Shown: positions 5,146-42,830 of the stretch, piece after piece | Layout: every line of letters starts with the position of its first letter | How positions within the stretch are numbered: the first letter of the stretch is position 1 | NCBI GenBank assembly: GCA_965224565.1 | Contig: CBDCZN010000002.1 | Coordinates: 2,230,417 to 2,294,416, forward strand | DNA length: 64,000 nt | Reading direction: 5' to 3' | Origin: Methylococcales bacterium | GTDB lineage: Bacteria > Pseudomonadota > Gammaproteobacteria > Methylococcales > DRLZ01 | Program-made: the position numbers and the translations under genes | Notes under the pieces: generated by a model | Told to the model about the DNA's origin: nothing | Database searches by the model: none | The model's input: only the letters and a program-made list of their open reading frames with translations

Positions 5146-5310
5146 TATACTCTCCGCACATGAAAATTCAGCATCCTGTGCACGCGCTTTTTTGCGGATA
5201 GTTGCGTTGGAAAACCTTGTTGTAGAACGACTACAGCGAAGGTTTCCCGCCTTACTTTCCACAAAAGATCACGCACACAAAATACTAATTTCTCATGTGA
5301 GAAGAGTATA
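5146..5310. mobile_element. MITE copy 1 (~165 bp, 30-bp TIRs tatactctccgcacatgaaaat..)
   Basis: Terminal inverted repeats tatactctccgcacatgaaaattcagcat / atttctcatgtgagaagagtata; one of at least five near-identical copies in the window; the ORFs inside it are spurious. Confidence 0.8.
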
Positions 5311-5477
5311 GCCACACTGCTTTGACCAGACAACGTTAAAATCAACTACCACGCTTATATAAAACGTAGTGGTTGATTCTGCATGACTAACTACCATTAG
5401 AGTTTGGCACGTTTTATGATAGACTGATTCTATTTTAAATTGTATGAAAAATACAACTGTTTTTGTAGAGAAAATAA

Positions 5478-6698
5478 ATGAAACGATTCGCCATATTATT
5501 TTTCGCCTGGCTGTTTTTTTGCGCTCCCTTTTACTCAGCACACGCTGATGACGCTGAGATTCGTGCATTACGCAAAGAAGTCAGTGAACTCAAGGCTATT
5601 GTTGAGAAATTAACCCAGGGACAAGAAAAATTAACCCATGGACAAGAGCAAAATAAAGTTGAAATCACTCAAATCAAACCCAAGCCACATAGTGATTTCG
5701 ATGTACCTACCTTAAAAATGCAGGGTTTTGGACATTTGCAATACGATTACTCCAATCAATCGTTTAGAGATCGTCCTGACAAAAATACGAACCGCTTTGC
5801 TACCGGAAACCTTGGCTTTACAATCACCTCGCAGATTTCCAAAAAACTCAGTTTTCTCAATGAAACCCTGTTTAAGTTTCAGCAGAGCGGTAATGCGAAT
5901 GTGACTGTCGAGCGAGTTCTCTTGAAATATGAACACGCAAGTTGGCTGAATGTCTCCATAGGTCGAGAACACACCCCCCTTGGCTATTGGAATCAACACT
6001 ACCACCACGCCAGGTGGATGATGACCTCAACTGATCGCCCAGTGATCTATCGAGTTGAGGCCAGCGACGGTATATTACCCATGCATTACGTTGGCCTCGG
6101 ACTGTTTGGCGATTTAGGGTTCGATTTTGGCGATATTGAGTACAGTGTGGCAATTGGTAACGGTCGGGGTCGAAATACCAGAACAGTACAAATGATAGAA
6201 GATAAAAACGACGAAAAACAGATAGCTACAAAATTTACCATTCAGCCAAGCGCGCTGGAAGGGTTTGGTGTCGGCGCCAGTTTCCTTTACGATGTTATTC
6301 CCAACGATCTGGGTACTGTCGGTCGGGAAAATGAGATTGATGAGATCATCGCTGGTGGTCATTTATATTACACGCGCGAACCCTACGAACTCATCGCTGA
6401 ATACAAACATATTCGGCATGACGATTCGAGATCAGTTAAATCGCACCATGGTGGCTATATACAACTAGCTTATAGTATCAATAAGTTTAAGCCCTATTAT
6501 CGTATTGGCTTTCTTGAAATTGATTCCAACGATGTGTTTTTCGCTAACTTAAACGGTGTAGAAGATAGTATCCACCACACTGTTGGGCTGCGCTATGATT
6601 GGTTTCCTTTCGCGGCTATCAAGCTGGAATATCGCAGAATGGATTCTAAAAGCGAAGATTCTAATTCGGTCACGTCACAAGTATCGTTTATTTATTAA
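5478..6698 (+). CDS. Putative outer-membrane beta-barrel porin with N-terminal coiled coil
   Basis: Signal peptide MKRFAILFFAWLFFCAPFYSAHA, a heptad coiled coil, alternating amphipathic strands and a C-terminal ...VSFIY aromatic terminus. Confidence 0.5.
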   Translation: MKRFAILFFAWLFFCAPFYSAHADDAEIRALRKEVSELKAIVEKLTQGQEKLTHGQEQNKVEITQIKPKPHSDFDVPTLKMQGFGHLQYDYSNQSFRDRPDKNTNRFATGNLGFTITSQISKKLSFLNETLFKFQQSGNANVTVERVLLKYEHASWLNVSIGREHTPLGYWNQHYHHARWMMTSTDRPVIYRVEASDGILPMHYVGLGLFGDLGFDFGDIEYSVAIGNGRGRNTRTVQMIEDKNDEKQIATKFTIQPSALEGFGVGASFLYDVIPNDLGTVGRENEIDEIIAGGHLYYTREPYELIAEYKHIRHDDSRSVKSHHGGYIQLAYSINKFKPYYRIGFLEIDSNDVFFANLNGVEDSIHHTVGLRYDWFPFAAIKLEYRRMDSKSEDSNSVTSQVSFIY

Positions 6699-7183
6699 AA
6701 TATAATAGATGCAAGGCTTGCTGACTGTAATTAGTCACTTCAAAAGAAAGCGATCGAGCCAAAATAATTTACTTTGCGTAAAACACCAGTCTTCAACTTC
6801 TACTCAGCAAACACTTACTCTCAACTATAATGGGGCATTGGCATTTAGTGTGTAATTATCATCGAAGGCAAACTGAAAAATGCCGTTGTCACTACTCTAA
6901 ACGAGATCTTTTTTTCGCTCACACCAGAAACAAATCATATACTTTCGGTGTCGAATCGGTGTGTCCACAAATTAGACTGATTACTACAGTACGATACTTT
7001 CCCCAGTGTGATTCTTTAAATAGATTCCAAAAAATACATCGACTACTTTGTGAGTATTGTTACTGGAACGTAATCAGAAGATTCTCCAATAAACTATTTC
7101 ACATGATGAGAATCGACATTACAATATTATTTGCACCTGAGAAATCACTGCGAAGCCTACTTATTAACATTCAGGTTTGATCT

Positions 7184-8260
7184 GTGATGAATTGGTTCAT
7201 ATTTAATCCAGGGTTTGTTCGTAAAAACACAAGAAATTTTCCCTGTAGAACATCCACTGTGCGACTCGTTATGCTTTTTTGCTGCCTTTTTGTCAATGAA
7301 ACTGCATTCGCCGACCTCAGTACAATTCCTCCACTGGTAAAATCGCCACAGCAACAAAAGCAAGCGCAAATAAAAAGTATTATTAAAAAAGCTCGCCAGG
7401 CGATTAATAAAAATCGCTTAACCAAGCCGGTCAACAATAATGCTGTTTACTTTGTTCAGCAGTTATTCACTTTGTCACCAAAGGATAAGCGTGGCTTTAA
7501 AATCCTTTCAGAAGTGCGTAACAGTTATACCGTTTTAGCCTATAAGAAGCTCAGTAACAACCAAATTAGCCAGGCACAAACCTATCACAATAAAGCTAAG
7601 ATGATTGCGCGTCAGTTTAATATCACCTTTGATTCCAAACCCTTGGCAAACTTACAGAGAAACATTAACAAGCGCCAAAGAACACTCACACAGTACAAGC
7701 CTGTACTTACAGCCCAGACTAAACCAAGTAAACCATCTACGAAAACCAAGAAAACAGCCCCAAAAGAACCTTTCACAAGACCCAAAAGAATATACCCTCA
7801 ACGCCAGCCTCAAACTTCACCACGGAAAACCCAGATACCTCTTGAAAAACAGGATACCACGACAGAACCTGTTTTAAGCCTAGCTGAACGAAATCGAATT
7901 GTGGTGATTGTCAACAAACGGAATAAAGTGTCCACTTTAACCCTCCGCGAACTCAAATCTCTGTTTAAAGGCCATCAAAAAACCTGGCCAAATGGAGAAA
8001 TTGTTACTTTGTATTTACCACCGACTGGCGGTGAGACGCTATTATGGTTGGGAAAAAATGTATTTCAGAATAGCTCCCCTGCAGCAGTACCCCAATATTA
8101 TATGGGAGAATTAATCAGAAATGACTTAACAAAAATACCCGAAACCACAACAAACGGAGTATCGGACGTTTCTCGAATCATTGGCGGCATTGCGATCGTT
8201 AAAGTCGGCGAAATTAAAGATAATAATTCTGTAAAGATTGTTCCAATAGATGGTATTTAG
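7184..8260 (+). CDS. Secreted hypothetical protein with a C-terminal periplasmic-binding (PstS-like) fold; real start probably near 7268
   Basis: A hydrophobic signal-like segment (MLFCCLFVNETAFA) is followed by a Lys/Pro/Thr-rich linker. The C-terminal ~130 aa (IVVIVNKRNKVSTLTLRELKSLFKG...WPNGE) resembles the PBP/PstS domain. Confidence 0.35.
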   Translation: MMNWFIFNPGFVRKNTRNFPCRTSTVRLVMLFCCLFVNETAFADLSTIPPLVKSPQQQKQAQIKSIIKKARQAINKNRLTKPVNNNAVYFVQQLFTLSPKDKRGFKILSEVRNSYTVLAYKKLSNNQISQAQTYHNKAKMIARQFNITFDSKPLANLQRNINKRQRTLTQYKPVLTAQTKPSKPSTKTKKTAPKEPFTRPKRIYPQRQPQTSPRKTQIPLEKQDTTTEPVLSLAERNRIVVIVNKRNKVSTLTLRELKSLFKGHQKTWPNGEIVTLYLPPTGGETLLWLGKNVFQNSSPAAVPQYYMGELIRNDLTKIPETTTNGVSDVSRIIGGIAIVKVGEIKDNNSVKIVPIDGI

Positions 8261-8264
8261 CTAT

Positions 8265-8432
8265 ACTATACTCTCCGCACATGAAATTCTAGCATCCTGT
8301 GCACGCACTTTTTGCGGATAACTGCGTTGAAAAACCTTGCTGTAGAAGTGACTACAGCTAAGATTTTCCGCCCTGCTCTCCACAAAATACCACGCACACA
8401 AAATGCTAGATTTTCATGTGCGAAGAGTATAT
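8265..8432. mobile_element. MITE copy 2
   Basis: Same TIRs and palindromic core (aaaaccttgctgtagaagtgactacagctaagatttt) as the other copies. Confidence 0.8.
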
Positions 8433-8504
8433 TACAACTGCCTTTTAAAACTGAGCTTAATTTGGTCTAACGGCAATCGTCTATTTACTAGATAAATTCG
8501 TCAT

Positions 8505-9776
8505 TTGGGTACGCAATTGGAAAGTATAGAATCATCCTTCGAGTTATTCTTGCCAGATATAGAACCCTATCTGGAAAGAATTGACTTATCCTTGCCGGAA
8601 ACTCCGATTGCACCCCTCGATAAATTCACTCTCGTTGTAAACGCCAGTGGCTCCGAATTACCTTGTGATGGCAGTTGGTTTCAAATAACCCTGGCTGGTC
8701 AGAAACTACCGATTGCACCCAAAACAACCATTCTTTCGAAACCGAAAGGTAAAACGTTAAGTGTCGGGCTTAACGGGCAATGGCACGTTCAATTGAAAGC
8801 ACCAGGAGAAGAGGGAGACTACTGGTTACATGTAATCATAGGTTCGGTCGATGCTGACCAAAGAATTGTCAAAATTCCATTTAGTGTAAAACTTATTTCC
8901 CAGCGTGGATTAAATCGGGCATTAATCAATCGGGCATTAACCTCGGTAGCATATTTAGTTACCGCACTAGCTGTGATATGGCTGGCATTTTCTATTAACC
9001 GAGAAACAGCTGATGAAACCTTGAACAGCACAATCAGCATACCTTCGCTAGATCAGACCAAGAACGCACCTTTGACAGAAGGGGCAGAAGTAGAAGCAAC
9101 AAAAGCAGAAAAAGAACAAGCACTAAGATATTTAGAAACAAAAAAATTCATTGATGGGTTACTAGAACAAAGTTTTCATGATCAAAGCGTCCTCGTACGA
9201 CAAGATGCTTGGCGAAAAATTTCTCAATTTATTGAATCACAAGGCAACGCTGACACTCCACTTATCCGGGAAATACTGCGACAAAGATATCAATATAAGC
9301 AACAAGTGGAATCTTGGGTAACATCAAACGATAACCCCCAGGAACTAATCAAACGGCTACAAGTATTAGCCTTTGTCGATGACAATCGGAACGCTCAGCG
9401 CTGGTTAGGAAACTTTTACGCTACTGGAAGAATTGTAATAAAACACTTAGGTAAAGCCTGGCTATGGTATCAACGTGCCGCCAATAAAGGCGATGTCGAG
9501 GCAAATCAGTTGATCGAAGAACTCGAAATCCGCGCAGACCAGATGTTACATTCGTCAAACCTCGATGAACGCTTGCAAGGCTACGAAGTTGCTGAGGAAG
9601 CTGCTTCTGCCGGCGGTGTTAATTCGCAATTATGGATGGGGTATCGTTATGAAACTGGTGATGGTGTCGAACGTGACTTAGTAATAGCCGCTAGCTGGTA
9701 CAGTAAAGCAGCCGAACAAGGAAATACTCTGGCGAATGAAAAACTTACGAAAATATTGGATATGATCCCCAGGTAA
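8505..9776 (+). CDS. Membrane protein with C-terminal Sel1/TPR-like repeats
   Basis: A TM helix (SVAYLVTALAVIWLAFSI) in the middle; the C-terminus carries Sel1-like repeats (WLGNFYATGRIV.., WYQRAANKGDVEA.., WMGYRYETGDGVERD.., WYSKAAEQGN). Confidence 0.5.
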   Translation: MGTQLESIESSFELFLPDIEPYLERIDLSLPETPIAPLDKFTLVVNASGSELPCDGSWFQITLAGQKLPIAPKTTILSKPKGKTLSVGLNGQWHVQLKAPGEEGDYWLHVIIGSVDADQRIVKIPFSVKLISQRGLNRALINRALTSVAYLVTALAVIWLAFSINRETADETLNSTISIPSLDQTKNAPLTEGAEVEATKAEKEQALRYLETKKFIDGLLEQSFHDQSVLVRQDAWRKISQFIESQGNADTPLIREILRQRYQYKQQVESWVTSNDNPQELIKRLQVLAFVDDNRNAQRWLGNFYATGRIVIKHLGKAWLWYQRAANKGDVEANQLIEELEIRADQMLHSSNLDERLQGYEVAEEAASAGGVNSQLWMGYRYETGDGVERDLVIAASWYSKAAEQGNTLANEKLTKILDMIPR

Positions 9777-9784
9777 CATCATGA

Positions 9785-12700
9785 CTATTTCTCCAGCTTC
9801 AAATTTTGACGTAAAATTTGTATCTCACCAGATAGCTCATTCACTTTGCGCACAATGGTCAAATCCAGATCAATTTTTTTGTCCATAGAACTCACAACCG
9901 GCATCAAGCTGGTTTCAACAATATTCGCTAATTGCTGGATTGCACCCTCGACAACTAATGAGGGTTTGTTAACAACACGAATACCGACTTCCTTCCCTTC
10001 AACTGCATCCTGAAGTGCTTGTAATTGCTTGCTGATGTTGAGCATTGGATGCATTAACTCTGTTTCACTATTGATGGCTTGATGAATAGATTCCAGGTGC
10101 TCTGTCACATAACTTAATTGCGAGGCTACTTTGGTGGCTGCATCTGCACCATCGCCGCCCATGCTTTGGCTGCGTTGAAAATCTTCTATAATGGCATCCC
10201 AGCGTTGTTGCTCTTCAGCTGTCATATTGCCGCGTAGTTGTGCGAGTTTAAGCAGATTATGCTCTGCGCCAGTGGTTAGCAGTTGTGCTTCTCCCTGGTA
10301 ATGATCGCTGATCATTTGCATCAGTTCATCATCATTCATCACTGCCGAGACTTTTTCGCAGAGTTTATTCATGTTGCGATAACTGCCTTGCAGTTTGAAG
10401 GCTGGCTCTGTGCGGTATTTGTCGTCTTGTGCTGCGGAACTGATGTAATTTTGATTAACACTTAATACCAGCTCTTGGATGGTAAATAGTTTGCGCAATA
10501 CTGCCATTATTTCGTTGAGTTCTGCGCCGCTGTATTGATGGTTTAAATCGGTGCTGGCGATGTTTGCGCCTTTTGCCATGTCGATGATTTTGTAGACATC
10601 ATCCATTTCACGAGTCGCTAGTGGTGCCAGTACCGGGTTGGAGGTGAGGCTGTTTTCAATATAACTCAGCGCAAACTGCTCATCCATTCCCCCGAGGATA
10701 TCGCCAAGATTATAGATATCTGCACGGTTTGCGAGCATATCCGGTATTTTGAACAGTTCGCCCGATTCGGTATAGGGGTTACCTGCCATCACTACGCAGA
10801 ATTTTTTACCGCGCATGTCGTAAGTCTTGGTATTGCCTTTCCAGACACCTTCGATACGCCGTGTTCCATCGCACAGTGAAATAAATTTTTGCAGAAATTC
10901 GGAATGAGTATGTTGAATATCATCCAGATACAACATGACGTTGTTGCCCATTTCCAGCGCCAGATTAAGCTTGTGTAATTCCTGTCTGGCGGTGGCGTTA
11001 GGTGCTGTGTCAGGATCCAGAGACAGCACATCATGACCCAATGATGGACAATTGATTTTCATGAAAATCAATCCCAGACGATTGGCGACATATTCCATTA
11101 ATGTGGTTTTACCGTAACCCGGTGGTGAAATCATCATCAACAAGCCCATCAGGTCGGAACGCTTATTGGCTCCGATGGTGCCCATTTGTTTTGCCAGGTT
11201 GTCACCTATAATCGGTAAATAGGCTTCATTGATCAGTCGATTGCGCACAAAGGAACTGAGCGGCTTGGCTTTGAATTCTTCCAGACGCAAAACTAATCGC
11301 TGCTGTTCCATGATTGTTTGACGAAGACTGTGATAATCATGATAGCCTTTAATCACCACTTGCTGATGATGTTGCAAGCGCTGCAAAAAGTCATCCACCG
11401 AAAAACCAAGACTGCGTTGCTGAATGACTGGATGATCACCCATCAGTTGATCAATGTTTAACTCAAGGTCTGTCTGCGAACTACGCCGGTCGATGCGTTG
11501 ATCGCCATTCAATAACGCCACGGCTTCCGCAATATAGCCTTGCAACTGAGTTAGTTGTTTATGTTCCACCAGTGCCTGCAACCAGGCATGGGTTAATTGC
11601 CAGCGTTGATCAATTCGATGACTGAGTTTTTCCAAAGCGGTCTGGTAATTACGCCAAGTCGATTCATCCAGGCTACGTTTCAGTTCATCTGCCAATTGTT
11701 GCGCGTACTTGCTACCAATAAATTGCAAGCGTTCCCGACTCAATTCAGCAACCAGATACTGCGCGGCTTGCTCAATTGCCAATGCTGTAAAATCGCCAGC
11801 AGCAATACCTTCTAAGCTTTGATTAAGCGGATAACGCTTTAGAAAGCTGTGTAAGGCTTGCTCAACCTCTTCTGCCAACAAGTGAGTGGCCTGGTGACTG
11901 GTTAAGCTGGACTGCATTTGCGCAGCGGATTGCGCACGTGTTTGCCAGGTAATATAACTGGCTTCCAGCTTGGGCATGGTTTCTTGATTCGCCCAGAAAA
12001 TTTGCGCCAGCGCACGACTGGCTGGAGAATATCGGAGTAGATCTGCGCTTTGTAATGCCGGTATCAGGCTTTTGAGTATCAGTGCGCAATCATGATCATG
12101 AATGCCTTTTTCATAACCTTCGCGGTAACGTGGTGCAGAAAAGTCACGAATCAGTGTTAGCAATGCCGCGTCATCATGTAAAGCAGCTTGCAAAGTGGTC
12201 AGATCGAGATTGTCCTGATTGGCTTCTGCAGCTTGCAAAATAAGATAAGCAAGGTATTCTGCGCGATAGACTTGTGGCGATTCAGATTCTAATGCCATCT
12301 CCCAATACTCGCGCAACGCAAGCAATTCTGGACTATCGAGTGGTTCAAAATAATCGGTTCCAGTGATGTGTAAAGTTAGCACCTCATTGCGTGGAATAAT
12401 GGTTAAATCCAGCTCCTGGGTATTGACGCTAAATTTATGGCGCGGCCCCAGCTTAATGACGTTGCCTCCGTCTTCATAAATATCGGTTTTATCGCGCAGT
12501 GAGCGTAACGCCTGCTCCTGTATCGCTTTGAAACGCCCTGCGATATCATCCGCTTTGACGGCATTATCCAGCCCACGTAATTTTTCGACGAGTTCGCGAA
12601 TTTTCAATACCAGGGCATCAGAAGCAAAATAAGTGTTGAGTTGATCGGCATCGCTAAATCGGTTACAACGCCGTTCGATATTCGTCAACATGCGTTGTGC

Positions 12701-15076
12701 TGCATCACTAATCGATTGTGCCTTGCGTTGTCTGGTATCGAGCAGCTGCTGTTTATGCGCTTCAAAGGATTCATAAATCTCCTCACGCTTACTCATAATG
12801 TCCGCTAAAAACTGGTCGTAATCACTAAACTGACTTTCCAGTTCTTCCAGCTGCACCAGCAAACGCGATAATTGCTCATCGCAACGCTCAGGACTATTCG
12901 CCATTTCCAGTGCGTTATTGATGCTTTGCGAGAACAGTTTAAACTGTGCAGCGAATTGTGCCAGCGCTTCTTCAGAACCGGTTTCTTTTTGCTTATGGCG
13001 TGCAGTGGCTTTGCTTTGATTGAGCTTGGAATAGACTTCTGAAATCGCATCAACAATGCGGGTACGCACAGTTGCATCGCTGATTTTCAACGTAGTCATC
13101 AACTCTGAAAGTAAATCCAGCCCTCTGGCAGTGGTGTCAATCTCCTCTATTACCGGAGTCAGCTCCGCAATGGTTTGCGCTTTTTCTATTTGCTGATTGA
13201 ACTTCTCAATTTTATCCAGATATGGAAGCAGGGCTTTTTCGTCAGCTAGAAAGATTCCGGTTTTTTCACCGAGTTGCTCACTGCTTTGTTCCAACACCTG
13301 ATCCATTTCGCTAATGCGATCCAAATTAATATAGCGATGCTCTTTAATGGTTGCCAAATGTCCACGTTGACGACGCAATTGATCCAGAGCATTCACATAT
13401 TGCTCGGCTGTTTCCCAACTGTCCGGCTGAATTGAATGCAGTAATTCGGACTGTGCTTGCTCAGCTTCGAGCATGGTTTTAGCGGATTGCTGACGAATGC
13501 TTTCCACTTTTTCAAATTCATCAATTACCAATTCAGAAGTATTGGTAATCTCTTTCAGCAACGTGCCAATGCCTTGCGTTTCTGAATCCTCAATCCAGTA
13601 ATGCGCATCAAACATTTTCGCCGCAGTCTTGCTTAGCTCTTCATACAAGCGAGCAGACACTGCTTGCTCATCAATCAACCGACACACACTGTACAAGTCA
13701 GAAATACCGCGCACCAGCTCAGCATTACCAATACGTCCAAAAAACGATTGATTGGCTGGTACACGGCTGGCAAATTCCTGACTGGTATAAGGTGTGCGCC
13801 AGATTTGCATGGGGTGAATACGAGTCGGTTCACCTTCGGCTGTAAAAATCACCACTGCGCCATCATCTGCCAAAGCGTGTCCATGGCCAACAATCGGGTT
13901 TTGCAGCAACTGTTCAATGACGTTATAGGAAAACAAAGCAACCACACCCAGTTCCGGCTGGTAAAACACATAGAGCACATCCTCACCATTCGGTGAATTG
14001 ATGCGGCGTCTGAATTTTAAGCCCTCAGTCCCGGTATCGTAAGTTTTGTTCTGCCCGTTTTGCAGATAATAACCACCGGGGAAAATAATGCCGTGGTCCT
14101 CTGGAAGTTGCACACAGGATTCACCAATCGCATCCATGCGCAACACACTTTCAGTTGCGGTATTAAAAATAAAATAACGCCAGTCCTGTTCACGATAAGG
14201 CAACATTTTCAATAGAATCAACTGGCCTACTTGCGCATACTCAATTTGAGCATCATCCAGCGACTGAGTCTGGTCTTCAACAGCTTCGCTATAAACTCCG
14301 CGACCATCATCAGTATTATTTTCCACCTTAATGGTTAAATCACCATTAATGGTTTCAACAAACAGCGTATCGAGAATATTGACATGTGGATGGCGACCAT
14401 TCACCGAGTCTTCACGACTGGTTTCCTGCCACTCAAAATCAAAAGCAGGTGGAAGCTGAATATCGCGCTCACCACGATTATCGATATAACTGACTTGCTT
14501 GCCATCGGCAGAAATCGCCCAGCGAAACACGCGGATATCTTCCACCCGCTCACCAATCTGAAAACCAGCCAGTAACTTGCCATTCTTGGCAGTCAGCTCG
14601 ACCAGTCTGGTTTGCTTGTAATAACGATACAGCTCAGCAAAATCATTACGAAATGATGTCTCGGCAAGAAAGCTGGTATCGAGCGTTTGCTGCACCATCT
14701 CATACTGAACATCATCATTGTCGGTATTGTTAACATCCGATGCCGAGGTGGTTGTTAGACGATACAGAGAAAACACATCCTCAATACGGGTTTCCTTCTT
14801 CAACCCGATATAAACGTTATAGCCAAACAACAACAAATCACCGACCTGAACAATATCTCGGGCCACGCAATTGTTTTCAGAACGCACCCGCACCCGAGCA
14901 GCCACAGCCATCTCGGAACTACCAAATTCCGCCAACCGCGCTTTATTTAAGGTTTTGGTTTGATTCTTAAGCTTTTGGCCTTGACCAACAAGGCGTTTAC
15001 GAATCACCTCGTAAGCACCACCTTCGGCTACGGCCTGGTCTACGATGTTGTTGGGTTCTGGTTGTTGATCGAGCAT
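9785..15076 (-). CDS. Giant (1763 aa) coiled-coil protein with a single AAA+ ATPase domain (Walker A SPPGYGKTTL, Walker B VMLYLDDIQH); function unknown
   Basis: Uninterrupted 5.3-kb ORF. Its N-terminal ~400 aa is also present as a truncated paralogous fragment at 19.6-21.9 kb. About 700 aa of predicted coiled coil lead into an AAA_5/MoxR-McrB-like P-loop core at aa ~1180-1350. Confidence 0.6.
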   Translation of the reverse strand: MLDQQPEPNNIVDQAVAEGGAYEVIRKRLVGQGQKLKNQTKTLNKARLAEFGSSEMAVAARVRVRSENNCVARDIVQVGDLLLFGYNVYIGLKKETRIEDVFSLYRLTTTSASDVNNTDNDDVQYEMVQQTLDTSFLAETSFRNDFAELYRYYKQTRLVELTAKNGKLLAGFQIGERVEDIRVFRWAISADGKQVSYIDNRGERDIQLPPAFDFEWQETSREDSVNGRHPHVNILDTLFVETINGDLTIKVENNTDDGRGVYSEAVEDQTQSLDDAQIEYAQVGQLILLKMLPYREQDWRYFIFNTATESVLRMDAIGESCVQLPEDHGIIFPGGYYLQNGQNKTYDTGTEGLKFRRRINSPNGEDVLYVFYQPELGVVALFSYNVIEQLLQNPIVGHGHALADDGAVVIFTAEGEPTRIHPMQIWRTPYTSQEFASRVPANQSFFGRIGNAELVRGISDLYSVCRLIDEQAVSARLYEELSKTAAKMFDAHYWIEDSETQGIGTLLKEITNTSELVIDEFEKVESIRQQSAKTMLEAEQAQSELLHSIQPDSWETAEQYVNALDQLRRQRGHLATIKEHRYINLDRISEMDQVLEQSSEQLGEKTGIFLADEKALLPYLDKIEKFNQQIEKAQTIAELTPVIEEIDTTARGLDLLSELMTTLKISDATVRTRIVDAISEVYSKLNQSKATARHKQKETGSEEALAQFAAQFKLFSQSINNALEMANSPERCDEQLSRLLVQLEELESQFSDYDQFLADIMSKREEIYESFEAHKQQLLDTRQRKAQSISDAAQRMLTNIERRCNRFSDADQLNTYFASDALVLKIRELVEKLRGLDNAVKADDIAGRFKAIQEQALRSLRDKTDIYEDGGNVIKLGPRHKFSVNTQELDLTIIPRNEVLTLHITGTDYFEPLDSPELLALREYWEMALESESPQVYRAEYLAYLILQAAEANQDNLDLTTLQAALHDDAALLTLIRDFSAPRYREGYEKGIHDHDCALILKSLIPALQSADLLRYSPASRALAQIFWANQETMPKLEASYITWQTRAQSAAQMQSSLTSHQATHLLAEEVEQALHSFLKRYPLNQSLEGIAAGDFTALAIEQAAQYLVAELSRERLQFIGSKYAQQLADELKRSLDESTWRNYQTALEKLSHRIDQRWQLTHAWLQALVEHKQLTQLQGYIAEAVALLNGDQRIDRRSSQTDLELNIDQLMGDHPVIQQRSLGFSVDDFLQRLQHHQQVVIKGYHDYHSLRQTIMEQQRLVLRLEEFKAKPLSSFVRNRLINEAYLPIIGDNLAKQMGTIGANKRSDLMGLLMMISPPGYGKTTLMEYVANRLGLIFMKINCPSLGHDVLSLDPDTAPNATARQELHKLNLALEMGNNVMLYLDDIQHTHSEFLQKFISLCDGTRRIEGVWKGNTKTYDMRGKKFCVVMAGNPYTESGELFKIPDMLANRADIYNLGDILGGMDEQFALSYIENSLTSNPVLAPLATREMDDVYKIIDMAKGANIASTDLNHQYSGAELNEIMAVLRKLFTIQELVLSVNQNYISSAAQDDKYRTEPAFKLQGSYRNMNKLCEKVSAVMNDDELMQMISDHYQGEAQLLTTGAEHNLLKLAQLRGNMTAEEQQRWDAIIEDFQRSQSMGGDGADAATKVASQLSYVTEHLESIHQAINSETELMHPMLNISKQLQALQDAVEGKEVGIRVVNKPSLVVEGAIQQLANIVETSLMPVVSSMDKKIDLDLTIVRKVNELSGEIQILRQNLKLEK

Positions 15077-15133
15077 GCCTGTTTCCTGGTGCGTTATGTT
15101 TTGTTTAATTGATAGAAATAATGATGAGTTTAT

Positions 15134-15163
15134 GTAGGTTGGGGTGAGTTTACGAACCCCAAC
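15134..15163. repeat. REP hairpin (3' side of RAYT1): gttgggg-N12-ccccaac
   Basis: A 7-bp stem with a 12-nt loop; the same element recurs at six further sites and always flanks RAYT genes. Confidence 0.75.
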
Positions 15164-15166
15164 AAA

Positions 15167-15703
15167 TCACGCCTTTTCTCCAAACATAAATTCATCAACG
15201 CCATCATTGGTATATCCCCAATCATCATTCAATATGCCTTTCGCTATGTACAGATGGATACTCGAATAAGACCAATCCATCGCACATTTTACGTAACCAT
15301 GTTTCACGGGATTGTAATGAATGTAATCAACATGTTTTTCATAATCATCTTCATCACGAATCAAATGCTCCCAATAACGTCTTTGCCAAATTCCTCGCTC
15401 ACCTTTTGATTGTCTGCTTTTGTCTATTCTCTCAAGCTTGGGCATTACACGAGAAAAACCGGTTTTAATTAGCATCCAACGTGTTGCAAAATCATTATCC
15501 TCAAGTGGCAATGTCCATAACGCATGCAAATGGTCGGGTAATACCACCATCGCATCGATTTTAAACGGATGCTGTTTCTTAACCTTATTCATAACGCTTC
15601 GCAAAATATCGATTTCATCAATCAATAATGAATTGTTGCGTTCCGCCAAATTCACCGTGAAAAAATATGTTCCGCCTTTTATGTCAGCTCTTCGATAACG
15701 CAT
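15167..15703 (-). CDS. REP-associated tyrosine transposase (RAYT, IS200/IS605-like TnpA_REP), copy 1
   Basis: 178 aa with the HxH motif (LPDHLHAL) and the catalytic Tyr region (YIHYNPVKHGYV); flanked on both sides by REP hairpins. Confidence 0.8.
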   Translation of the reverse strand: MRYRRADIKGGTYFFTVNLAERNNSLLIDEIDILRSVMNKVKKQHPFKIDAMVVLPDHLHALWTLPLEDNDFATRWMLIKTGFSRVMPKLERIDKSRQSKGERGIWQRRYWEHLIRDEDDYEKHVDYIHYNPVKHGYVKCAMDWSYSSIHLYIAKGILNDDWGYTNDGVDEFMFGEKA

Positions 15704-15752
15704 TTTATATTCCTAGCGTTTTTTTGATTTCTAGCTGTTTTTGTTGGGGTTC

Positions 15753-15782
15753 GTGCCTCACCCCAACCTACGCAGTCTAACA
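15753..15782. repeat. REP hairpin (5' side of RAYT1)
   Basis: gttggggttcgtgcctcaccccaacctacg. Confidence 0.75.
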
Positions 15783-15893
15783 AGTAAAGTGAACCATGAA
15801 GCAAAACCTCATGCACACACAGTTAACTATAGTAAAACTATGCTAAAAAGCGCGGAAACTCGTTATCAAGACAGAAAAGTGTCTGTGATTAAT

Positions 15894-16976
15894 TTATTCA
15901 TAAGGCTCATCATCATGGCCTGGTTTTTCCAAATCATCCAAAAAATCGGATGACATAATAATTTTTCTTTTTTTGCGGAGCTTAATGACATCAGGGTCAA
16001 AGTTTTTCAGAATATCCTGATAACTTTCATCCAAAAATGATTTGGCTTTATCAATTGCCACCTCAAGCTGTTTTTCTATGAAAGAATACTCAGCCATTAA
16101 TGGTTTACAATCAGCTGAAAAAGTTTGCCAGCGAATTTTCTTCAGGGTTGCTTCATTGGTAAAAATAAAACAACGATGCGGGTCATTATCCCAATCAAAA
16201 TCCTTTGTATAAGCAGCAGGTTCAAGCTTCGAATTCAGCTTGCTGATAACCAGCCAGCGTTTCTGTAAATATGGATACCAGCGATGTTGCAATTCCTTGA
16301 GTTGCTTTTCCAATCCACCGGCATCCTGTTGCATATCCCAGCGATAACCACCCTTGTCCCGCTTTCCATGTTCCTTGCCTTCAACAAATTTATGTGGAAT
16401 CAACTGATCAATATAATCTCTGCCAGTCGCTTCAATCTCATCATAAAGATGGGTTGCAACCGATGTGAATGTTGAATAGTAAAAGTTATCATCAATCAAT
16501 AAGCGTACCCACGGTGGCCAACGAAATGCATAGTATTCTGTACCCTTATAATCTTTAGAATCCTTCTTTCTTGCCTGCTCCTGAAACAGATAATCAGCAT
16601 GGTCATAATCGTAAAGTGTGCTGAAATCGAGCAAACTTTTATTATCTGCCATCGGCTCATTGAGACAAATCCAATCATCACCAATGCCCGCTGTTAGCAG
16701 TTTAGCCCAGTTAAGAACATTCAAATTATCAAGAGAAAGCTCTCTCCATACCTCATCAACGTCTTCAAGAGAACATTGAATATTCAGCAAATCATCCAGA
16801 AGCACACGCTTCACTTTTTGACAGGATTGTTCATTCATTGTTGCCCGAAAATGTTCTTGTTGTTTCGCTGACAACGAATAATACTGTGAGTCTGCTGCAA
16901 TTAAGGACTTACGGGCAGCGGCTTTTATTTGTGTTTTATCGAGTGAACTGAGCTTGTATTCGGTCGTATTACTCAT
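15894..16976 (-). CDS. Conserved hypothetical protein (360 aa from MSNTTEYKLSSL), partner of the giant ATPase gene
   Basis: The ORF track gives 401 aa, but the likely start is the ATG at 16976 (MSNTTEYK). A second copy, truncated after 8 codons (MINNTEYK) by a REP, lies at 23181-23206 next to the second Fic gene. Confidence 0.55.
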   Translation of the reverse strand: MSNTTEYKLSSLDKTQIKAAARKSLIAADSQYYSLSAKQQEHFRATMNEQSCQKVKRVLLDDLLNIQCSLEDVDEVWRELSLDNLNVLNWAKLLTAGIGDDWICLNEPMADNKSLLDFSTLYDYDHADYLFQEQARKKDSKDYKGTEYYAFRWPPWVRLLIDDNFYYSTFTSVATHLYDEIEATGRDYIDQLIPHKFVEGKEHGKRDKGGYRWDMQQDAGGLEKQLKELQHRWYPYLQKRWLVISKLNSKLEPAAYTKDFDWDNDPHRCFIFTNEATLKKIRWQTFSADCKPLMAEYSFIEKQLEVAIDKAKSFLDESYQDILKNFDPDVIKLRKKRKIIMSSDFLDDLEKPGHDDEPYE

Positions 16977-17264
16977 TTCAATGATCCTGTACCTGGTATG
17001 GAAAATACTTGGTTGTGTGTGTGTGATGAACCCTGAACTATACAATATCACTATCGCTACAAAACTGATCAATTCAACAAGAGAAAACATACGATACAAG
17101 CTTCAGAAATACCAACTTATCGAAATGATTCCTGAATGCCTGTATTTAAATTACGGTGGCGAATCGATCTAAGGTAATTCTATTTCTGTTACATTATAAA
17201 GGCTTTGCGACAACACCAGGTCTGCTGGTGTGTGATCATCATAGTTAGCGATCTGTTACAATTG

Positions 17265-17432
17265 CATACTCTCCGCACATGAAAATTTAGCATGTAGGGT
17301 GGGTGATTTTTTGTGGAGAGCAAGACGGAAAACCTTGGCTGTAGTTATTCTACAGCAAGGATTTCCAACGCAGCTATCCGAAAAAAAGTGCGCGCCCTAC
17401 ATGCTAAACTTTCATGTGCGGAGAGTATATTT
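17265..17432. mobile_element. MITE copy 3 (inverted orientation)
   Basis: Same TIRs; the core is the reverse complement relative to copies 1, 2 and 4. It overlaps the 5' extension of the Uma2 ORFs and shows that those extensions are spurious. Confidence 0.8.
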
Positions 17433-17453
17433 AGTCCTCTGGAACAAACTGAT

Positions 17454-18023
17454 ATGTCACAACCAGTCAAAAGCACAGCAAGCTATCATGATCTGTTCGA
17501 CCTCCCCGAGAACCTCGTCGGCGAGATTATTAATGGCGAGCTGCATACGCATCCGCGACCAGCGCCCAAACATGCCAGGGCCTATTCGGTTTTGGGTGGA
17601 AGTATTGGAAACCCGTACGATTGGGGTGGAAGCGGCCCGGGTGGCTGGTGGATTCTCGATGAACCAGAATTGCACCTTGACAACGACATCCTCGTGCCCG
17701 ATCTTGCCGGGTGGCGACGCGAGCGTATGCCAGCCCTACCCGAAACAGCCTGGTTCGAACTTGCCCCTGACTGGATTTGTGAAATTCTATCGCCTTCCAC
17801 CGCTCGCGTGGATCGCGTACTGAAAATGCCTATCTACGCTCGCGAAGGCGTACGACACCTGTGGCTAGTCGATCCAGACCTGCAAACCCTCGAGGTTTAT
17901 ATTCTCGACAACAGCCGCGACCAACCTCACTGGCTGCTACTCGATAGCCTTGAGGGTGATGCGCCTGTCAAACAGCCACCTTTCGATGCGATCGAGTTTT
18001 CATTAGGGGTGCTGTGGGGTTAA
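17454..18023 (+). CDS. Uma2 family (DUF820) putative restriction-endonuclease-like protein
   Basis: Starts MSQPVKSTASYHDLFDLPENLVGEIINGEL. Carries the characteristic motifs PDLAGW, PDWICEILSPSTARVDR and EGVRHLWLVDPD...LEVY. Confidence 0.8.
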   Translation: MSQPVKSTASYHDLFDLPENLVGEIINGELHTHPRPAPKHARAYSVLGGSIGNPYDWGGSGPGGWWILDEPELHLDNDILVPDLAGWRRERMPALPETAWFELAPDWICEILSPSTARVDRVLKMPIYAREGVRHLWLVDPDLQTLEVYILDNSRDQPHWLLLDSLEGDAPVKQPPFDAIEFSLGVLWG

Positions 18024-18106
18024 TTGCCCGGTTATGGATTTTTCTTGTGTAAGGGTAATTGATTGGCGTTATGTTCACTCACAAATCTATTTTTGTGTGC
18101 TAATAG

Positions 18107-18237: not shown

Positions 18238-18250
18238 TGGCTAATGTTAC

Positions 18251-18961: not shown

Positions 18962-18992
18962 GCGTAGGTTGGGGTGAGTTTACGAACCCCAA
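18962..18992. repeat. REP hairpin
   Basis: cgtaggttggggtgagtttacgaaccccaac. Confidence 0.75.
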
Positions 18993-18996
18993 CAAA

Positions 18997-37991: not shown

Positions 37992-38758
37992 CAGTGTTGC
38001 TCTGTTTTTATGACTATTGATTTATACTGATGGCTTAAATTCAGGTCATATCAATTCCAATATATTTTTATATTCTAAATAGCGGACTGTTTTAAAGGAG
38101 GAATGTCGTAAAGCATCCCCTTATCTCAATTTTGAGTTAATCCTCAAGTTCAACTACTTTAAAAACTGTCATCATACCTGCATTCAGATGATCATTTACA
38201 TGGCAATGATACATCCAGGTACCAGTGTTATCAGGTCTCATTTTATATACTTTTGATGCTGCTGGTAAAACTTCAGCTACATCAAGACGGTTGCCGTTAT
38301 GAAGAAGCGTACTGCCATGCCAGTGTGGTGTATGCAAATCAACTTCAGTACCCATGCCAATAATATACCAGCGAGACTTTTTACCCTTCTGCATGATATA
38401 TCCAGTATTATTGCCCCATACTCGACCATTAATGCCGTGCATTAGATTGCTTTCCTCAAAATCTTCTTCAGAAAGCCCGCAGGTATCGCTCCCGTCGCAC
38501 TGTGGTTTTGCAATATTTTTATCAACAAGCGTACTGGCATTTTCATCAAGCACGGTATAAAGGGATACAAATTCATGGTCAGCATTCTTCGGTGATCCAT
38601 CAGGTTTAGCCTGACCGCTTCTGGTAATAATAATCGCTCCAATTAATCCTGCATTGGTATCGCCTGTTTCATTTGCGTGACCATGGTATACCCAGCCAAT
38701 TGAGCTTGGATCATTTGGACCGGGTCCAGATCGTTTTGGTACTGGCCATATATATGTA

Positions 38759-39786
38759 CCTGATTACCCATAAGCTTCCGCAACTTTACTCGGAATTTTC
38801 ACTCTAATGGATATGTAATCACGGAGTCAAAGCCATGAGCAAAAATAAAGTGCAGTTCCAGGCAGGCTATAGCTTAATACAGCTATTTCAAGACTACGGA
38901 ACAGAAAGCCAATGCCGCGAAGCTTTATTCAAATTACGCTGGCCGACAGGGTTTAATTGCCCTGAGTGTGGTGGTTATCAGTATTGCTTTTTAAAAGCAA
39001 GAAAGCTCTATCAGTGTAATCAATGCCATCATCAAACGTCATTGATAAGCAGAACCATTTTTGAGCAAACCAAACTTCCTCTAACGAAGTGGTTTTTAGC
39101 CATCTACTTAATCACACAATCAAAACAGGTCTGTCAGCGTTGGCGCTTAAACGTGAAATCGGTGTGTCTTACAAGACAGCATGGAGTATGAAACACAAGA
39201 TCATGCAGGTCATGAAGGAACGAGATGATTGCAAGCGACTCAGTGGAACAATCCAGTTAGATGACGTCTATTGGGGTGGCGAACGCCACGGTGGAAAAAG
39301 AGGCAGAGGCTCAGCCAATAAGGTCCCGTTTGTTGCCGCTGTTTCACTCGATAAAGAAGGTCACCCGATTGCAATGAATATGAATGTCGTTAAAGGGTTT
39401 CGGCAGACAGAAATATCACGCTGGGCAAAACAGCATCTACAGCCTGATAGCACGGTTATTTCGGATGGATTGCCTTGTTTTTCAGCAGTGACTGATGCTG
39501 ATTGTCATCACATCAGCATTGTAACAGGCGGTGGATACCAAAGTGTCACAAAAAAAGAATTTGCTTGGGTGAATACCATGATAGGCAATGTTAAAAATGC
39601 CATCACTGGCACTTACCATGCAATCAACCCAAAGCATTTGCCACGCTATCTTGCTGAATTCTGCTATCGCCATAACAGACGGTTCCAGCTAGAAGATATG
39701 ATCCCTCGTTTTGCCTATGTTGCAGTCAGGACGACTCCTATGCCAGACAGACTTTTAAAATTGGCGGAAGCTTATGGGTAATCAGG
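38759..39786 (+). mobile_element. IS1595 family insertion sequence copy 1 (1028 bp), 23-bp IRs cctgattacccataagcttccgc, 8-bp TSD tatatgta
   Basis: Perfect IRs; direct repeats at 38751-38758 and 39787-39794. The transposase is split into ORFs 38835..39191 and 39089..39781 by a -1 shift at an A4 run. Confidence 0.85.
38835..39781 (+). CDS. IS1595 family transposase (zinc-finger CPECGG + DDE), frameshifted at caatcaaaacagg
   Basis: ORF1 ends ..LPLTKWFLAIYLITQSK and ORF2 continues ..GLSALALKREIGVSYKTAW. One extra A would give a single ~330-aa protein. Confidence 0.75.
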
Positions 39787-40971
39787 TATATGTATGCTGA
39801 TCACCAGGTGATACACTATCATCGGCTTTGTTCGCACCGCTTGTACCATCAGCATACGGCGAGCCTTCAGAATCCTTATCATAAAAGACTCCGTGTGGAT
39901 GGACAGTGGTCGGGAAAGAGGTATTGTTGCGAAAATGGACGAAAATTGTATCGTTTACTTCAGCTCGGATAATTGGACCGAGCATCCCTAAATGTTCCCT
40001 GTCCGTTCCAATGCGTGTGTCAACCTCTCCAACACCTGCACCGCCATCAATGATTGTATCCCAATCACACTTTGAGCCTTTATTTGCATAACGACGGTAG
40101 AGTGCTTTTGTGTAAACTCTGCCTATACCTTCATCGACAAAGATCAATTGTGAGTGAACAACCTTTTCTGCAAACTGTTGAGCACAAAAACCACCTTGTT
40201 GCGTCCGGCATCCAAAATAGCCAGTGCCTACTTGCCAGATTAAATCGCCACCCGGTTTTAAATGATACGAACTCAATCCTCCTTCCCCAGTGTTATGCGC
40301 AAAGCCACCAATGCGAGCGCCATGATTCAACGCCAATACGGCTGTTTGACTGAGCGCACCAAAACTCATCGCAGAAATATTGAAAATACTTGCAGAATAA
40401 GGCTGGCTACAGACACAACCACCGACCAAGACGCGTGGATCGGTATCCAGTGTTTCCATCTTGTGGGCTGCAAGAGAATGTCCCATCCACTCGTAGCCAA
40501 CTCGGTAGATATCGACGCGAGTGCCGAACGGTACACTATCCATGGCGCCAGTCGAGCGTTGATAAACCACCGAGCGATACATGCGATTGATTGGCACACC
40601 ATCTGTGTCCGATTCCATGTAATATTGACGCACCATCGGTCGCAGCCATTCGGCAATCCAGCGTGCGTGACCGACCACTGGAAAATTCCTGAGAATAGTA
40701 TGCCGTGACTGGTTTATATCGTAAACACCAAGCATACTCAAACACCCGATTGGCAACAACAACCAAAAAGCTGGCTGCCATATCAGACCTAGCAAACCAG
40801 AGAACAGAATGGCACTGATAGAAACCAGATAAAAACGTTGCGACGCATGACGACTACATTACACTAAGTCGGTACAGAAGTTTATCACCAAGAAGCCTGG
40901 TGATCACATTGCCTGCTATTGACAACACACGTCAACATAATCATACTTATATGGAATTCCATATATGTTAA

Positions 40972-41352: not shown

Positions 41353-41518
41353 TATACTCTCCGCACATGAAAATCTAGCATCCTGTGCACGCACTTTTTT
41401 GCGGATAACTGCGTTGAAAAACCTTGCTGTAGAGTGACTACAGCTAAGATTTTCCGCCTTGCTCTCCACAAAATATCACGCACACAAAATGCTAGATTTT
41501 CATGTACGAAGAGTATAC
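41353..41518. mobile_element. MITE copy 4, inserted between arsR and arsI/cadI
   Basis: Full TIRs; flanked by TA dinucleotides. Confidence 0.8.
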
Positions 41519-41544
41519 ATTTGAAACTATAAAGGAAGTTTAAT

Positions 41545-41994
41545 ATGAAAAGATTACATGTCCATATGTCAGTTGAAAATCTTGAAGACAATATTCGCTT
41601 TTACAGCACCTTATTCGCCTCTGAACCAACCGTGCAACATGACGATTACGCTAAATGGATGCTGGATAACCCACTTGTCAACTTTGCCATCTCAAATCGT
41701 GGCGCAAAACCTGGTATTGACCACCTGGGTATGCAAACTGACGATGACGAAGAGCTGGTGGATTTAAAACAACGTTTGGATGTAACACAGCAACCCATTA
41801 AAACCCAGGAAAATTCAGCTTGCTGTTATGCTAAATCAGATAAACACTGGGTAACTGATCCACAGGGAATTGCCTGGGAATCATTTCATTCATTATCCGA
41901 GATTCCAACTTTCAACGAGCCAGTAGACACTGAAACCAATGAAAGCGCATGCTGCGCACCAGTGGCAAAAGAAGCATCGCCATGTTGTGGCTAA
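41545..41994 (+). CDS. ArsI/CadI-type glyoxalase-family metalloenzyme with C-terminal Cys pairs
   Basis: VOC fold (MKRLHVHMSVENLEDNIRFYSTLF...IDHLGMQ) with CC motifs near the C-terminus; the genomic context lies between arsR and arsC. Confidence 0.6.
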   Translation: MKRLHVHMSVENLEDNIRFYSTLFASEPTVQHDDYAKWMLDNPLVNFAISNRGAKPGIDHLGMQTDDDEELVDLKQRLDVTQQPIKTQENSACCYAKSDKHWVTDPQGIAWESFHSLSEIPTFNEPVDTETNESACCAPVAKEASPCCG

Positions 41995-42026
41995 CCCTTT
42001 GAAATTAAAGCTGGAGAAAATAAACC

Positions 42027-42503
42027 ATGAAAAATGTTCTGGTGTTATGCACTGGTAATTCCTGTCGCAGTGTTCTTGGTGAAGCACTCTTCAATCATCT
42101 GGGTACTGGTCGAATCAAAGCCTTCTCCGCAGGTAGTAACCCAGTTGGCAAAGTCAATTCAAATGCACTAGCAACTCTAGCCGATCACGGTTTACCAACT
42201 GATGGTTATAGCAGTCAGCCCTGGGATGAATTTGCTGATTACAAAATAGATATTGTCATCACCGTTTGTGATAACGCGGCAGAGGAAACCTGTCCGGTCT
42301 ATCTCAACGATGCGATTAGAGTACATTGGGGTCTTGCCGATCCGGCACATGTCACAGGGACAAAGGAACAAATTAATTTCGCGTTTGAAAATACTTATAC
42401 TGCTCTGGAAGCGCGTATCAAAAAAATGCTCGAGTTGCCACTGGATGATTTAACCAATCAACAATTACTTAATCAGTTAAATGAAATTGGTACGACGACA
42501 TGA
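42027..42503 (+). CDS. arsC: Arsenate reductase, LMW-PTP/thioredoxin-coupled type
   Basis: CTGNSCRS P-loop at the N-terminus, and Cys82/Cys89-like residues (VITVCDNAAEETCP). Confidence 0.85.
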   Translation: MKNVLVLCTGNSCRSVLGEALFNHLGTGRIKAFSAGSNPVGKVNSNALATLADHGLPTDGYSSQPWDEFADYKIDIVITVCDNAAEETCPVYLNDAIRVHWGLADPAHVTGTKEQINFAFENTYTALEARIKKMLELPLDDLTNQQLLNQLNEIGTTT

Positions 42504-42830
42504 AATTTTAGCATTTAGTGTGCGTAATTTTTGTAGAGAATCAGGCAGAAAACCTTAGCTAAGTCATTCTACAGCTAAGGTTTTCCTACGTAATCATTCG
42601 CCTTGAACTCGAACAAAAATCCTAATTATACTCTTCGCACATGAAAATCTAGCATTTTGTGTGCGTGATATTTTGTGGAAAGCAAGGCGGAAAATCTTAG
42701 CTGTAATCACTCTACAGCAAGGTTTTTCAACGCAGTTATCCGCAAAAAAGTGCGTGCACAGGATGCTAGATTTTCATGTGCGGAGAGTATATTAGAGGCA
42801 CCTTTAAATCTTCATGTGCGGAGACTATCT
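42499..42830. mobile_element. Cluster of MITE copies: partial (42499-42600), full inverted copy 5 (42627-42793), TIR remnant (42795-42830)
   Basis: Core palindrome and TIR sequences are recognisable in each piece. Confidence 0.7.

What the first reader, a model, noticed from the sequence alone, without database searches (positions are those of the whole stretch)
5146..42830. Abundant ~167-bp MITE with 30-bp TIRs and TA flanks; nested cluster downstream of arsC
At least five complete copies (5146-5310, 8265-8432, 17265-17432, 41353-41518, 42627-42793) and two partial ones (42499-42600, 42795-42830) share TIRs tatactctccgcacatgaaaatctagcat and a palindromic core (..gaaaaccttgctgtagaag.gactacagctaagatttt..), and occur in both orientations. 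Four of the five copies are flanked by TA on both sides, consistent with an IS630/Tc1-mariner-type origin. No IS in the window has matching ends. Copies sit between arsR and arsI/cadI, immediately upstream of Uma2, and after yigZ, where they create spurious ORFs and where the palindrome could act as a terminator or an RNA structure.
Basis: seen in the sequence. Interest (0 to 1): 0.6.

Follow-up and report, generated by a model that had tools for sequence, protein, structure and literature searches.

The report
IS630-derived MITE in a methanotroph genome
The repeated ~165-bp sequence is a small non-coding transposon (MITE) that borrows the transposase of an IS630-family insertion sequence and inserts at TA sites; it is a real, previously undescribed member of a well-known kind of element.

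Summary
The window (a Methylococcales MAG, 3.3-Mb contig) holds five full copies of a 161-bp element. Four are flanked by TA on both sides; the fifth has CA/TA. There is also one older copy, split by a younger nested insertion, and one doubtful relic. First, a close relative (about 92-94% DNA identity) has the arsR-arsI spacer empty, with a single TA exactly where the window has TA-element-TA. The same relative carries the older copy downstream of arsC uninterrupted. Second, the 26-29-nt termini match the ends of a 1.13-kb IS630-family insertion sequence (NCBIfam NF033545). That IS is present in at least 20 near-identical copies in the methanotrophic endosymbiont of Gigantopelta aegis and occurs intact (341-aa transposase) in other metagenomes, always TA-flanked. 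No autonomous copy lies in the window or was found for the window's species. Of 67 unique full copies from genomes and metagenomes, 58 have TA/TA flanks. The element is a near-complete imperfect palindrome. One strand folds about 20 kcal/mol better as RNA through conserved G-U pairs, and some stem pairs covary between subfamilies. Single-copy mutations and insertion orientation show no selection on individual insertions. Verdict: a new member of a known kind, of modest interest.

The parts
5146..5310 (+). MITE copy 1. Element 5148-5308 (161 bp) with TA at 5146-5147 and 5309-5310. It lies in the 1-kb spacer between yigZ (3859-4425) and the ORF at 5478-6698. It is the most diverged of the main subfamily (87-88% to copies 4 and 5).
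8267..8431 (+). MITE copy 2. Element 8269-8429 with TA/TA flanks. It lies 6 nt after the stop of the ORF at 7184-8260 and 75 nt before the Sel1-repeat gene at 8505-9776.
   Evidence: all 5 differences from a 99.95%-identical assembly fall inside this copy
17265..17429 (-). MITE copy 3, of a different subfamily (82-85% to the others). Element 17267-17427 with flanks CA/TA. It lies 22 nt upstream of the likely Uma2 start (ATG about 17452), between divergent genes.
41353..41517 (+). MITE copy 4. Element 41355-41515, with the TA duplication at 41353-41354 and 41516-41517. It is inserted in the arsR-arsI spacer, 27 nt before the arsI ATG. The site is empty in relatives L056/L057.
42627..42791 (-). 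MITE copy 5 (98% identical to copy 4). Element 42629-42789 with TA/TA flanks. It is nested inside an older copy.
42498..42626 (-). The arsC-proximal part of the older copy. It lacks about 12 nt of its terminal repeat, and the junction with the arsC stop falls at a shared CATGA.
42792..42830 (-). The distal part of the same older copy, including its terminal repeat (…CATGTGCGGAGACTA). It abuts the stop of the convergent gene at 42832-46155.
46469..46509 (+). A possible degraded relic of a further copy (weak match).
   Evidence: nhmmer E = 0.004; sequence read

Best explanation
The repeat is a non-autonomous transposon (MITE), 161 bp long, derived from or parasitic on an IS630-family insertion sequence. 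Its 26-29-nt terminal inverted repeats (5'-TACTCTYCGCACATGAAAATYTAGCA) are the binding sites for that IS's DDE transposase. The transposase, supplied in trans, cuts the element out and inserts it at a TA dinucleotide, which is duplicated. This last step is inferred from what is established for the family. The element amplified in marine Methylococcales in at least two waves. An older copy downstream of arsC is shared with a relative. Copies 4 and 5 (98% identical to each other) inserted after that split. The insertions are intergenic, often within 30 nt of gene ends. Their effects on neighbouring genes (a long RNA hairpin, terminator-like motifs on one strand, an open reading frame that extends or creates ORFs) are side effects rather than selected functions of individual copies. 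SHOWN: the copies, the terminal repeats, the TA duplication by an empty site, the nested insertion, the matching IS630-family IS elsewhere, and the lack of coding capacity. INFERRED: mobilisation in trans by that transposase, and the present-day activity status.
For: Five full copies plus one split copy are present; the terminus occurs 10 times against 0 expected. Empty site: L056 reads ...GCACT-TA-CATTTGAAAC... where the window reads ...GCACT-TA-[161 bp]-TA-CATTTGAAAC..., and the older copy is uninterrupted in L056 but split in the window. Among 67 unique full copies from the window, two genomes and 71 metagenome contigs, 58 have TA/TA flanks while the bases outside vary; the modal length is 161 bp. 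In the Gigantopelta aegis methanotrophic endosymbiont, at least 20 copies (99.7-100% identical) of a 1128-bp IS start with TATACTCTCCGCACATGAAAAT and end with the inverted TATACTCTTCGCAAATGAGAATTTAGCAT. All are TA-flanked at otherwise unrelated sites. Its protein scores 204 bits on NF033545 'IS630 family transposase' (cut-off 100). Intact 341-aa relatives (86-91% identity) in other assemblies have the same ends and TA flanks. The element has no transposase homology, and its internal 100 bp are unrelated to the IS, so the copies spread as a unit.
Against: No autonomous IS630 copy is in the 64-kb window. None of the seven transposase loci looked up comes from the samples that hold the window's species, so a source of transposase in this genome is not shown. 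The sampled Gigantopelta loci hold the IS but no MITE, and the sampled MAG and metagenome loci hold MITEs but no IS. The two have therefore not been seen together in one genome, although short-read MAGs usually lose multi-copy IS. Similarity to the IS is limited to the terminal 22-29 nt. Mobilisation has not been tested experimentally.
Confidence: 0.9

Rival explanations
1. The element is, or has become, a functional RNA-level module: a strand-specific hairpin that acts as a terminator, a processing site or an mRNA stabiliser. Its spread or retention would then be driven by that function rather than by selfish transposition alone. This reading could hold in addition to a MITE origin.
For: The element folds into an almost complete hairpin (z -12 to -16). 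One strand is more stable in 66 of 67 copies, by about 20 kcal/mol on average. The cause is G-U pairs that are conserved across subfamilies: 196 G-U cells against 24 A-C cells, and 7 majority-G-U columns against 0 majority-A-C. Ten stem pairs show changes on both sides, and 94.9% of cells pair, against 38-57% when partners are slid. Terminator-like stem + T-run motifs occur only on the better-folding strand, which is the strand that faces arsC at the 42627 cluster.
Against: Mutations private to single copies give G-U 11 times and A-C 16 times, so there is no purifying selection on inserted copies. Orientation between co-directional genes is 8 weak to 12 strong (p = 0.5). There is no Rfam match. 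Parallel change at both ends is also expected for transposase-binding inverted repeats. The strand asymmetry could be inherited from one founder sequence.
Confidence: 0.12
2. The repeats are REP/REPIN-type palindromes mobilised by the REP-associated tyrosine transposases (RAYT), of which the window encodes four copies.
For: Four 178-aa RAYT genes (NF047646, 197 bits) lie at 15167-23009. The element is palindromic and intergenic, like REPINs.
Against: The empty site shows a TA target duplication, which Y1 transposases do not make. The termini match a DDE IS630-family IS. No copy flanks a RAYT gene, and the profile finds nothing significant next to them. At 161 bp with 27-nt terminal repeats, the element is unlike 20-40-nt REPs.
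Confidence: 0.02
3. Each copy arose independently, in place, by internal deletion of a full-length IS630 element, rather than by transposition of a short element.
For: The termini are those of the IS.
Against: All copies share the same about 100 bp of internal sequence, which is absent from the IS. The lengths cluster at 161 bp, with a second class near 175 bp. Independent deletions would give different junctions.
Confidence: 0.02

Closest known systems
RUP (repeat unit of pneumococcus), the MITE linked to IS630-Spn1 in Streptococcus pneumoniae (Oggioni & Claverys 1999, as summarised in PMC2229807)
   Same: It is a short (107 bp) non-coding element. Its terminal repeats resemble those of an IS630-family IS. 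It inserts at TA, is multi-copy and intergenic, inserts into other repeats, and is thought to be mobilised in trans.
   Different: There is no sequence relationship. The host phylum differs. This element is longer (161 bp) and is palindromic over almost its whole length. The matching IS has so far been seen only in related genomes, not in the same one.
Correia / NEMIS elements of Neisseria (PMC2229807, PMC3184786)
   Same: They are 100-155 bp with about 24-26-nt terminal repeats that begin with TA. They duplicate TA, occur in hundreds of intergenic copies and give long RNA hairpins (processed by RNase III in Neisseria). Some forms have open reading frames.
   Different: The terminal sequence is unrelated (my comparison is from memory of the Correia terminus and was not tested here). 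Correia elements carry IHF sites and promoters and have no assigned parent IS. No processing or promoter activity is known for the present element.
Nezha, an IS630-family-derived MITE of cyanobacteria (Zhou et al. 2008, cited in PMC10969869)
   Same: It is a MITE whose terminal repeats match an IS630-family IS, with a TA target.
   Different: The host and sequence differ. I did not compare the sequences.
IS630 family insertion sequences (NCBIfam NF033545; the Tc1/mariner superfamily)
   Same: The terminal repeats and the TA target duplication are those of a specific IS630-family lineage found in marine Methylococcales and their symbionts.
   Different: The element has no transposase gene and shares only 22-29 terminal nucleotides with the IS.

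Membership tests
Bacterial MITE derived from an IS630-family IS | Short (under about 300 bp), with no transposase coding capacity | tested here: met
   The element is 161 bp. tblastn with the IS630 transposase finds nothing in the window. Five of six frames carry stops, and the one open frame is only 53 codons.
Bacterial MITE derived from an IS630-family IS | Terminal inverted repeats | tested here: met
   The termini are 27-29 nt with 1-2 mismatches within a copy and are conserved among all copies.
Bacterial MITE derived from an IS630-family IS | TA target-site duplication | tested here: met
   The empty site in L056/L057 has a single TA where the window has TA-element-TA. 58 of 67 unique copies have TA/TA flanks with variable outer flanks.
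Bacterial MITE derived from an IS630-family IS | Multi-copy, dispersed, in both orientations, with presence/absence differences between relatives | tested here: met
Copies 4 and 5 are absent in L056.
Bacterial MITE derived from an IS630-family IS | Termini match those of an autonomous IS that encodes an IS630-family transposase | tested here: met
   A 1128-bp IS in the Gigantopelta endosymbiont and intact relatives (L058-L064) share 22-29 terminal nt. The transposase scores 204 bits on NF033545. It was not found in the window or in the window's species.
Bacterial MITE derived from an IS630-family IS | Mobilised in trans by that transposase | not testable with these tools
   This needs a binding or transposition assay.
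REP / REPIN mobilised by RAYT | Short REP palindromes that flank a RAYT gene; no target duplication | tested here: not met
   A TA duplication is shown. No copy or short palindrome lies next to the four RAYT genes.
Intrinsic (Rho-independent) terminator module (SPRITE-like) | GC-rich stem-loop followed by a U-run in the transcribed orientation, placed at gene 3' ends | tested here: inconclusive
   Two consensus matches per copy occur on one strand only, but orientation relative to transcription is random. No transcript data are available.
Any described RNA family (Rfam 15) | Covariance-model match at or near the gathering score | tested here: not met
   There is no match at gathering thresholds in the window. 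The only matches are chance-level (E >= 2) on the element.

The most novel reading that the evidence does not exclude
The transposition-competent 'master' copies may be under selection to keep a strand-specific single-stranded hairpin. G-U (or G-T) wobble pairs are tolerated on one strand only and are conserved across subfamilies, and other stem positions covary. That would mean the element works through an RNA or single-stranded-DNA intermediate or product: a processed hairpin RNA, an antisense or regulatory RNA acting on the parent IS630 transposase, or a folded strand needed for mobilisation. It would then be more than a passive pair of transposase-binding ends.
Probability: 0.12. Interest if true: 0.5.

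Novelty: new member of a known kind. Interest (0 to 1): 0.3.

Why it matters
The element is a practical annotation issue in marine methanotroph and symbiont genomes. It creates spurious gene calls, one of which is already present in public assemblies. It sits inside operons such as arsR-arsI-arsC. It also coincides with a contig breakpoint and with the only strain-to-strain differences in a 10-kb stretch, so it probably confuses short-read assembly or drives recombination. Linking it to the IS630 lineage that has expanded in the Gigantopelta endosymbiont gives a marker for transposon activity and exchange among free-living and symbiotic Methylococcales. Biologically it is an ordinary example of a known class. 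The conserved strand asymmetry of its hairpin is the one feature worth a transcriptomic look.

Tried and rejected
Rfam found nothing at gathering thresholds on the whole window, or at permissive thresholds on one copy.

BLAST of the element against 72,556 plasmids gave no match.

Full-text searches for the terminal sequence and for the WGS accession prefixes found no paper. A MITE + methanotroph search gave nothing relevant. The Gigantopelta hologenome paper reports IS630 expansion but no MITE.

I looked for the autonomous parent in the window by tblastn. I also looked in seven contigs that encode close transposase relatives. None belongs to the window's species.

I tested the hypothesis that copies between co-directional genes avoid the terminator-like orientation. 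It looked true in the window (3 of 3) but failed on 20 cases (8:12).

I tested the hypothesis that individual copies are under selection for the RNA hairpin. Singleton changes give G-U 11 times and A-C 16 times, so it was rejected.

REP palindromes next to the RAYT genes were not found.

An early reading of the Gigantopelta repeat as a 443-bp element was an artefact of using an atypical copy as the query.
Full report
**Observation.**
Reading the five stated places shows the same about 165-bp sequence each time. The 22-nt terminus TATACTCTCCGCACATGAAAAT occurs 10 times in the window at up to 3 mismatches, against none in 100 shuffles. A profile built from the copies recovers each full copy at E 1e-55 to 1e-59 and also hits each on the opposite strand, which shows that the whole element is an imperfect palindrome. 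The profile also finds the partial copy at 42498-42601, the end fragment at 42805-42829 and a doubtful relic at 46469-46509. The exact anatomy is a 161-bp element (for example 41355-41515) with TA on each side. Four of five copies have TA/TA flanks and copy 17265 has CA/TA. Pairwise identities range from 98% (copies 41353 and 42627) down to 82%. The window has 42% G+C. Exact-protein look-ups place it on a 3.32-Mb contig of a 'Methylococcales bacterium' MAG.

**Gene context.**
- arsR (PF01022), ArsI/CadI (NF041414) and arsC (LMWPc);
- Uma2 (PF05685), whose likely start lies 22 nt past copy 17265;
- yigZ (UPF0029).

**What it is: two direct tests.**

- In a Methylococcales MAG (SCS4bin.24) the hits are copies of the same short element, 156-193 bp long.
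- In the methanotrophic endosymbiont of the vent snail Gigantopelta aegis the hits are not the short element. They are one end of a 1128-bp insertion sequence present in at least 20 copies at 99.7-100% identity.
- The other end of that IS is the inverted TATACTCTTCGCAAATGAGAATTTAGCAT.
- Every copy is flanked TA...TA at otherwise unrelated sites.
- The reverse strand encodes a transposase that scores 204 bits on NCBIfam NF033545, 'IS630 family transposase' (cut-off 100).
- Intact 341-aa relatives (86-91% identity) occur in other assemblies. Their loci show the same two ends and TA flanks.
- The short element shares 26-29 terminal nucleotides with these IS ends and nothing internally.

*Test 2, the empty site.* A homologue search with ArsI led to contigs of a close relative (ArsI 91% identical, DNA 92-94%).
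- There the arsR-arsI spacer reads GCACT-TA-CATTTGAAAC, where the window reads GCACT-TA-[161 bp]-TA-CATTTGAAAC. This shows the TA duplication directly.
- The same contig carries one uninterrupted older copy between arsC and the convergent gene.
- In the window that older copy is split by the 42627-42791 copy, itself TA-flanked. The 'two partial copies' are therefore one element with a nested insertion.
- The older copy has lost about 12 nt of its arsC-proximal terminus, at a CATGA shared with the arsC stop.

**Breadth.**
A metagenome scan with a 26-nt terminus gave 78 contigs with 86 element hits and no transposase. Pooling all sources gives 67 unique full copies. Of these, 58 have TA/TA flanks with variable, AT-rich outer flanks. 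The lengths peak at 161 bp, with a second class near 175 bp that carries a 14-nt insert.

**Mechanism.**
The shown facts fit the standard model for IS630/Tc1-mariner-type MITEs. The transposase is made by an autonomous IS, binds the terminal repeats and inserts the element at TA. That step is inferred from the family's established behaviour and not shown here. No autonomous copy was found in the window or in contigs from the window's species. Whether the element is still mobile in this genome is therefore open. At least two waves of activity are implied, because the older arsC copy is shared with the relative while copies 41353 and 42627 are not.

**Structure and possible side effects.**
As RNA the element folds into a near-complete hairpin of -64.5 kcal/mol on one strand and -97.2 on the other (z -12 and -16). 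The DNA parameters give the same ranking. The better-folding strand is the same in 66 of 67 copies. The reason is that most arm differences are transitions, which give G-U on that strand and A-C on the other:
- 196 G-U cells against 24 A-C cells over 22 copies;
- seven majority-G-U columns against none that are majority-A-C.

Ten stem pairs show changes on both sides between subfamilies. 94.9% of cells pair, against 38-57% when the partners are slid. Terminator-like stem + T-run motifs occur only on the better-folding strand.

Two tests for selection on inserted copies were negative.
- Changes private to a single copy give G-U 11 times and A-C 16 times.
- Between co-directional genes the orientation is 8 weak to 12 strong.

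The asymmetry therefore belongs to the founder or master sequences, and I cannot explain it. Parallel change at both ends is in any case expected for transposase-binding repeats. One reading frame of the element is open. An 80-aa ORF that starts inside copy 42627 is called as a gene in two public assemblies, which confirms the spurious-ORF remark.

**Rivals.**
- REPIN/RAYT mobilisation was considered because the window encodes four RAYT genes. It is contradicted by the TA duplication, by the DDE-type parent and by the absence of copies next to the RAYT genes.
- Independent in-place deletions of full IS copies are contradicted by the shared internal sequence and the fixed length.
- A described RNA family is excluded by Rfam.

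**Comparison and novelty.**
The closest described case is RUP of S. pneumoniae. It is linked to IS630-Spn1 by similar termini and TA targets. Correia/NEMIS elements share the size, the TA duplication and the hairpin RNA (PMC2229807, PMC3184786, PMC10969869). I found no paper that describes this element. The Gigantopelta hologenome paper notes IS630 expansion in the methanotrophic symbiont but mentions no MITE. It is a new member of a known kind. Interest is modest and rests mainly on annotation and assembly consequences and on the unexplained strand asymmetry.

Noticed in passing
window 9785-24287: There are four copies of a 178-aa REP-associated tyrosine transposase gene (NF047646, 197 bits) at 15167-15703, 18997-19533, 21971-22507 and 22530-23009. 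Each lies in about 650-bp repeats. They are interleaved with duplicated pieces of a DUF3686/AAA ATPase gene (9785-15076; fragments 19601-20449 and 21506-21880) and two Fic genes (18251-18937, 23304-24287). RAYT genes are usually single-copy, and no REP palindromes were found beside them.
   Followed up: partly
window 8302-8390 (inside MITE copy 8267-8431) vs L049: All five differences between window 1-10425 and a 99.95%-identical ENA assembly lie inside this one MITE copy. This suggests gene conversion between copies, or short-read assembly mixing of repeat copies.
   Followed up: partly
window 41353; L044/L045 (JAZGFT010000233.1, JAZHCG010354721.1): Two public contigs are 100% identical to the window from the MITE at 41353 rightwards, but carry acetyl-CoA synthetase instead of arsR on the left. 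The breakpoint lies exactly at the MITE, so this is either a chimeric assembly or MITE-mediated recombination.
   Followed up: no
window 38750-39850 and 61580-62700: Two 98%-identical copies of an IS1595-family IS are present, with the transposase in two overlapping ORFs (Zn_ribbon_IS1595 + DDE_Tnp_IS1595). The first abuts a truncated Glu_synthase/Cu-oxidase-like ORF at 39782-40795.
   Followed up: no
window 20537-21529: An IS30-like transposase (HTH_38 + rve) is inserted between two fragments of a duplicated DUF3686 ATPase gene.
   Followed up: no
L030:3713-4840 and about 20 other loci of NZ_JAEHGD01 (Gigantopelta aegis methanotrophic endosymbiont): The IS630 copies there have the transposase split over two frames, whereas relatives have one 341-aa ORF. 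Poly-T tract lengths vary among otherwise identical copies. The split may therefore be a long-read homopolymer error rather than programmed frameshifting. One copy (L041) carries a nested insertion.
   Followed up: no
window 42501-42503 and 42832-42834: The older MITE copy fills the whole spacer between the stop codons of arsC and the convergent 1107-aa galactose-oxidase-like/PKD gene. In relatives without it (L053) the spacer is about 330 bp and the neighbouring gene is different.
   Followed up: no
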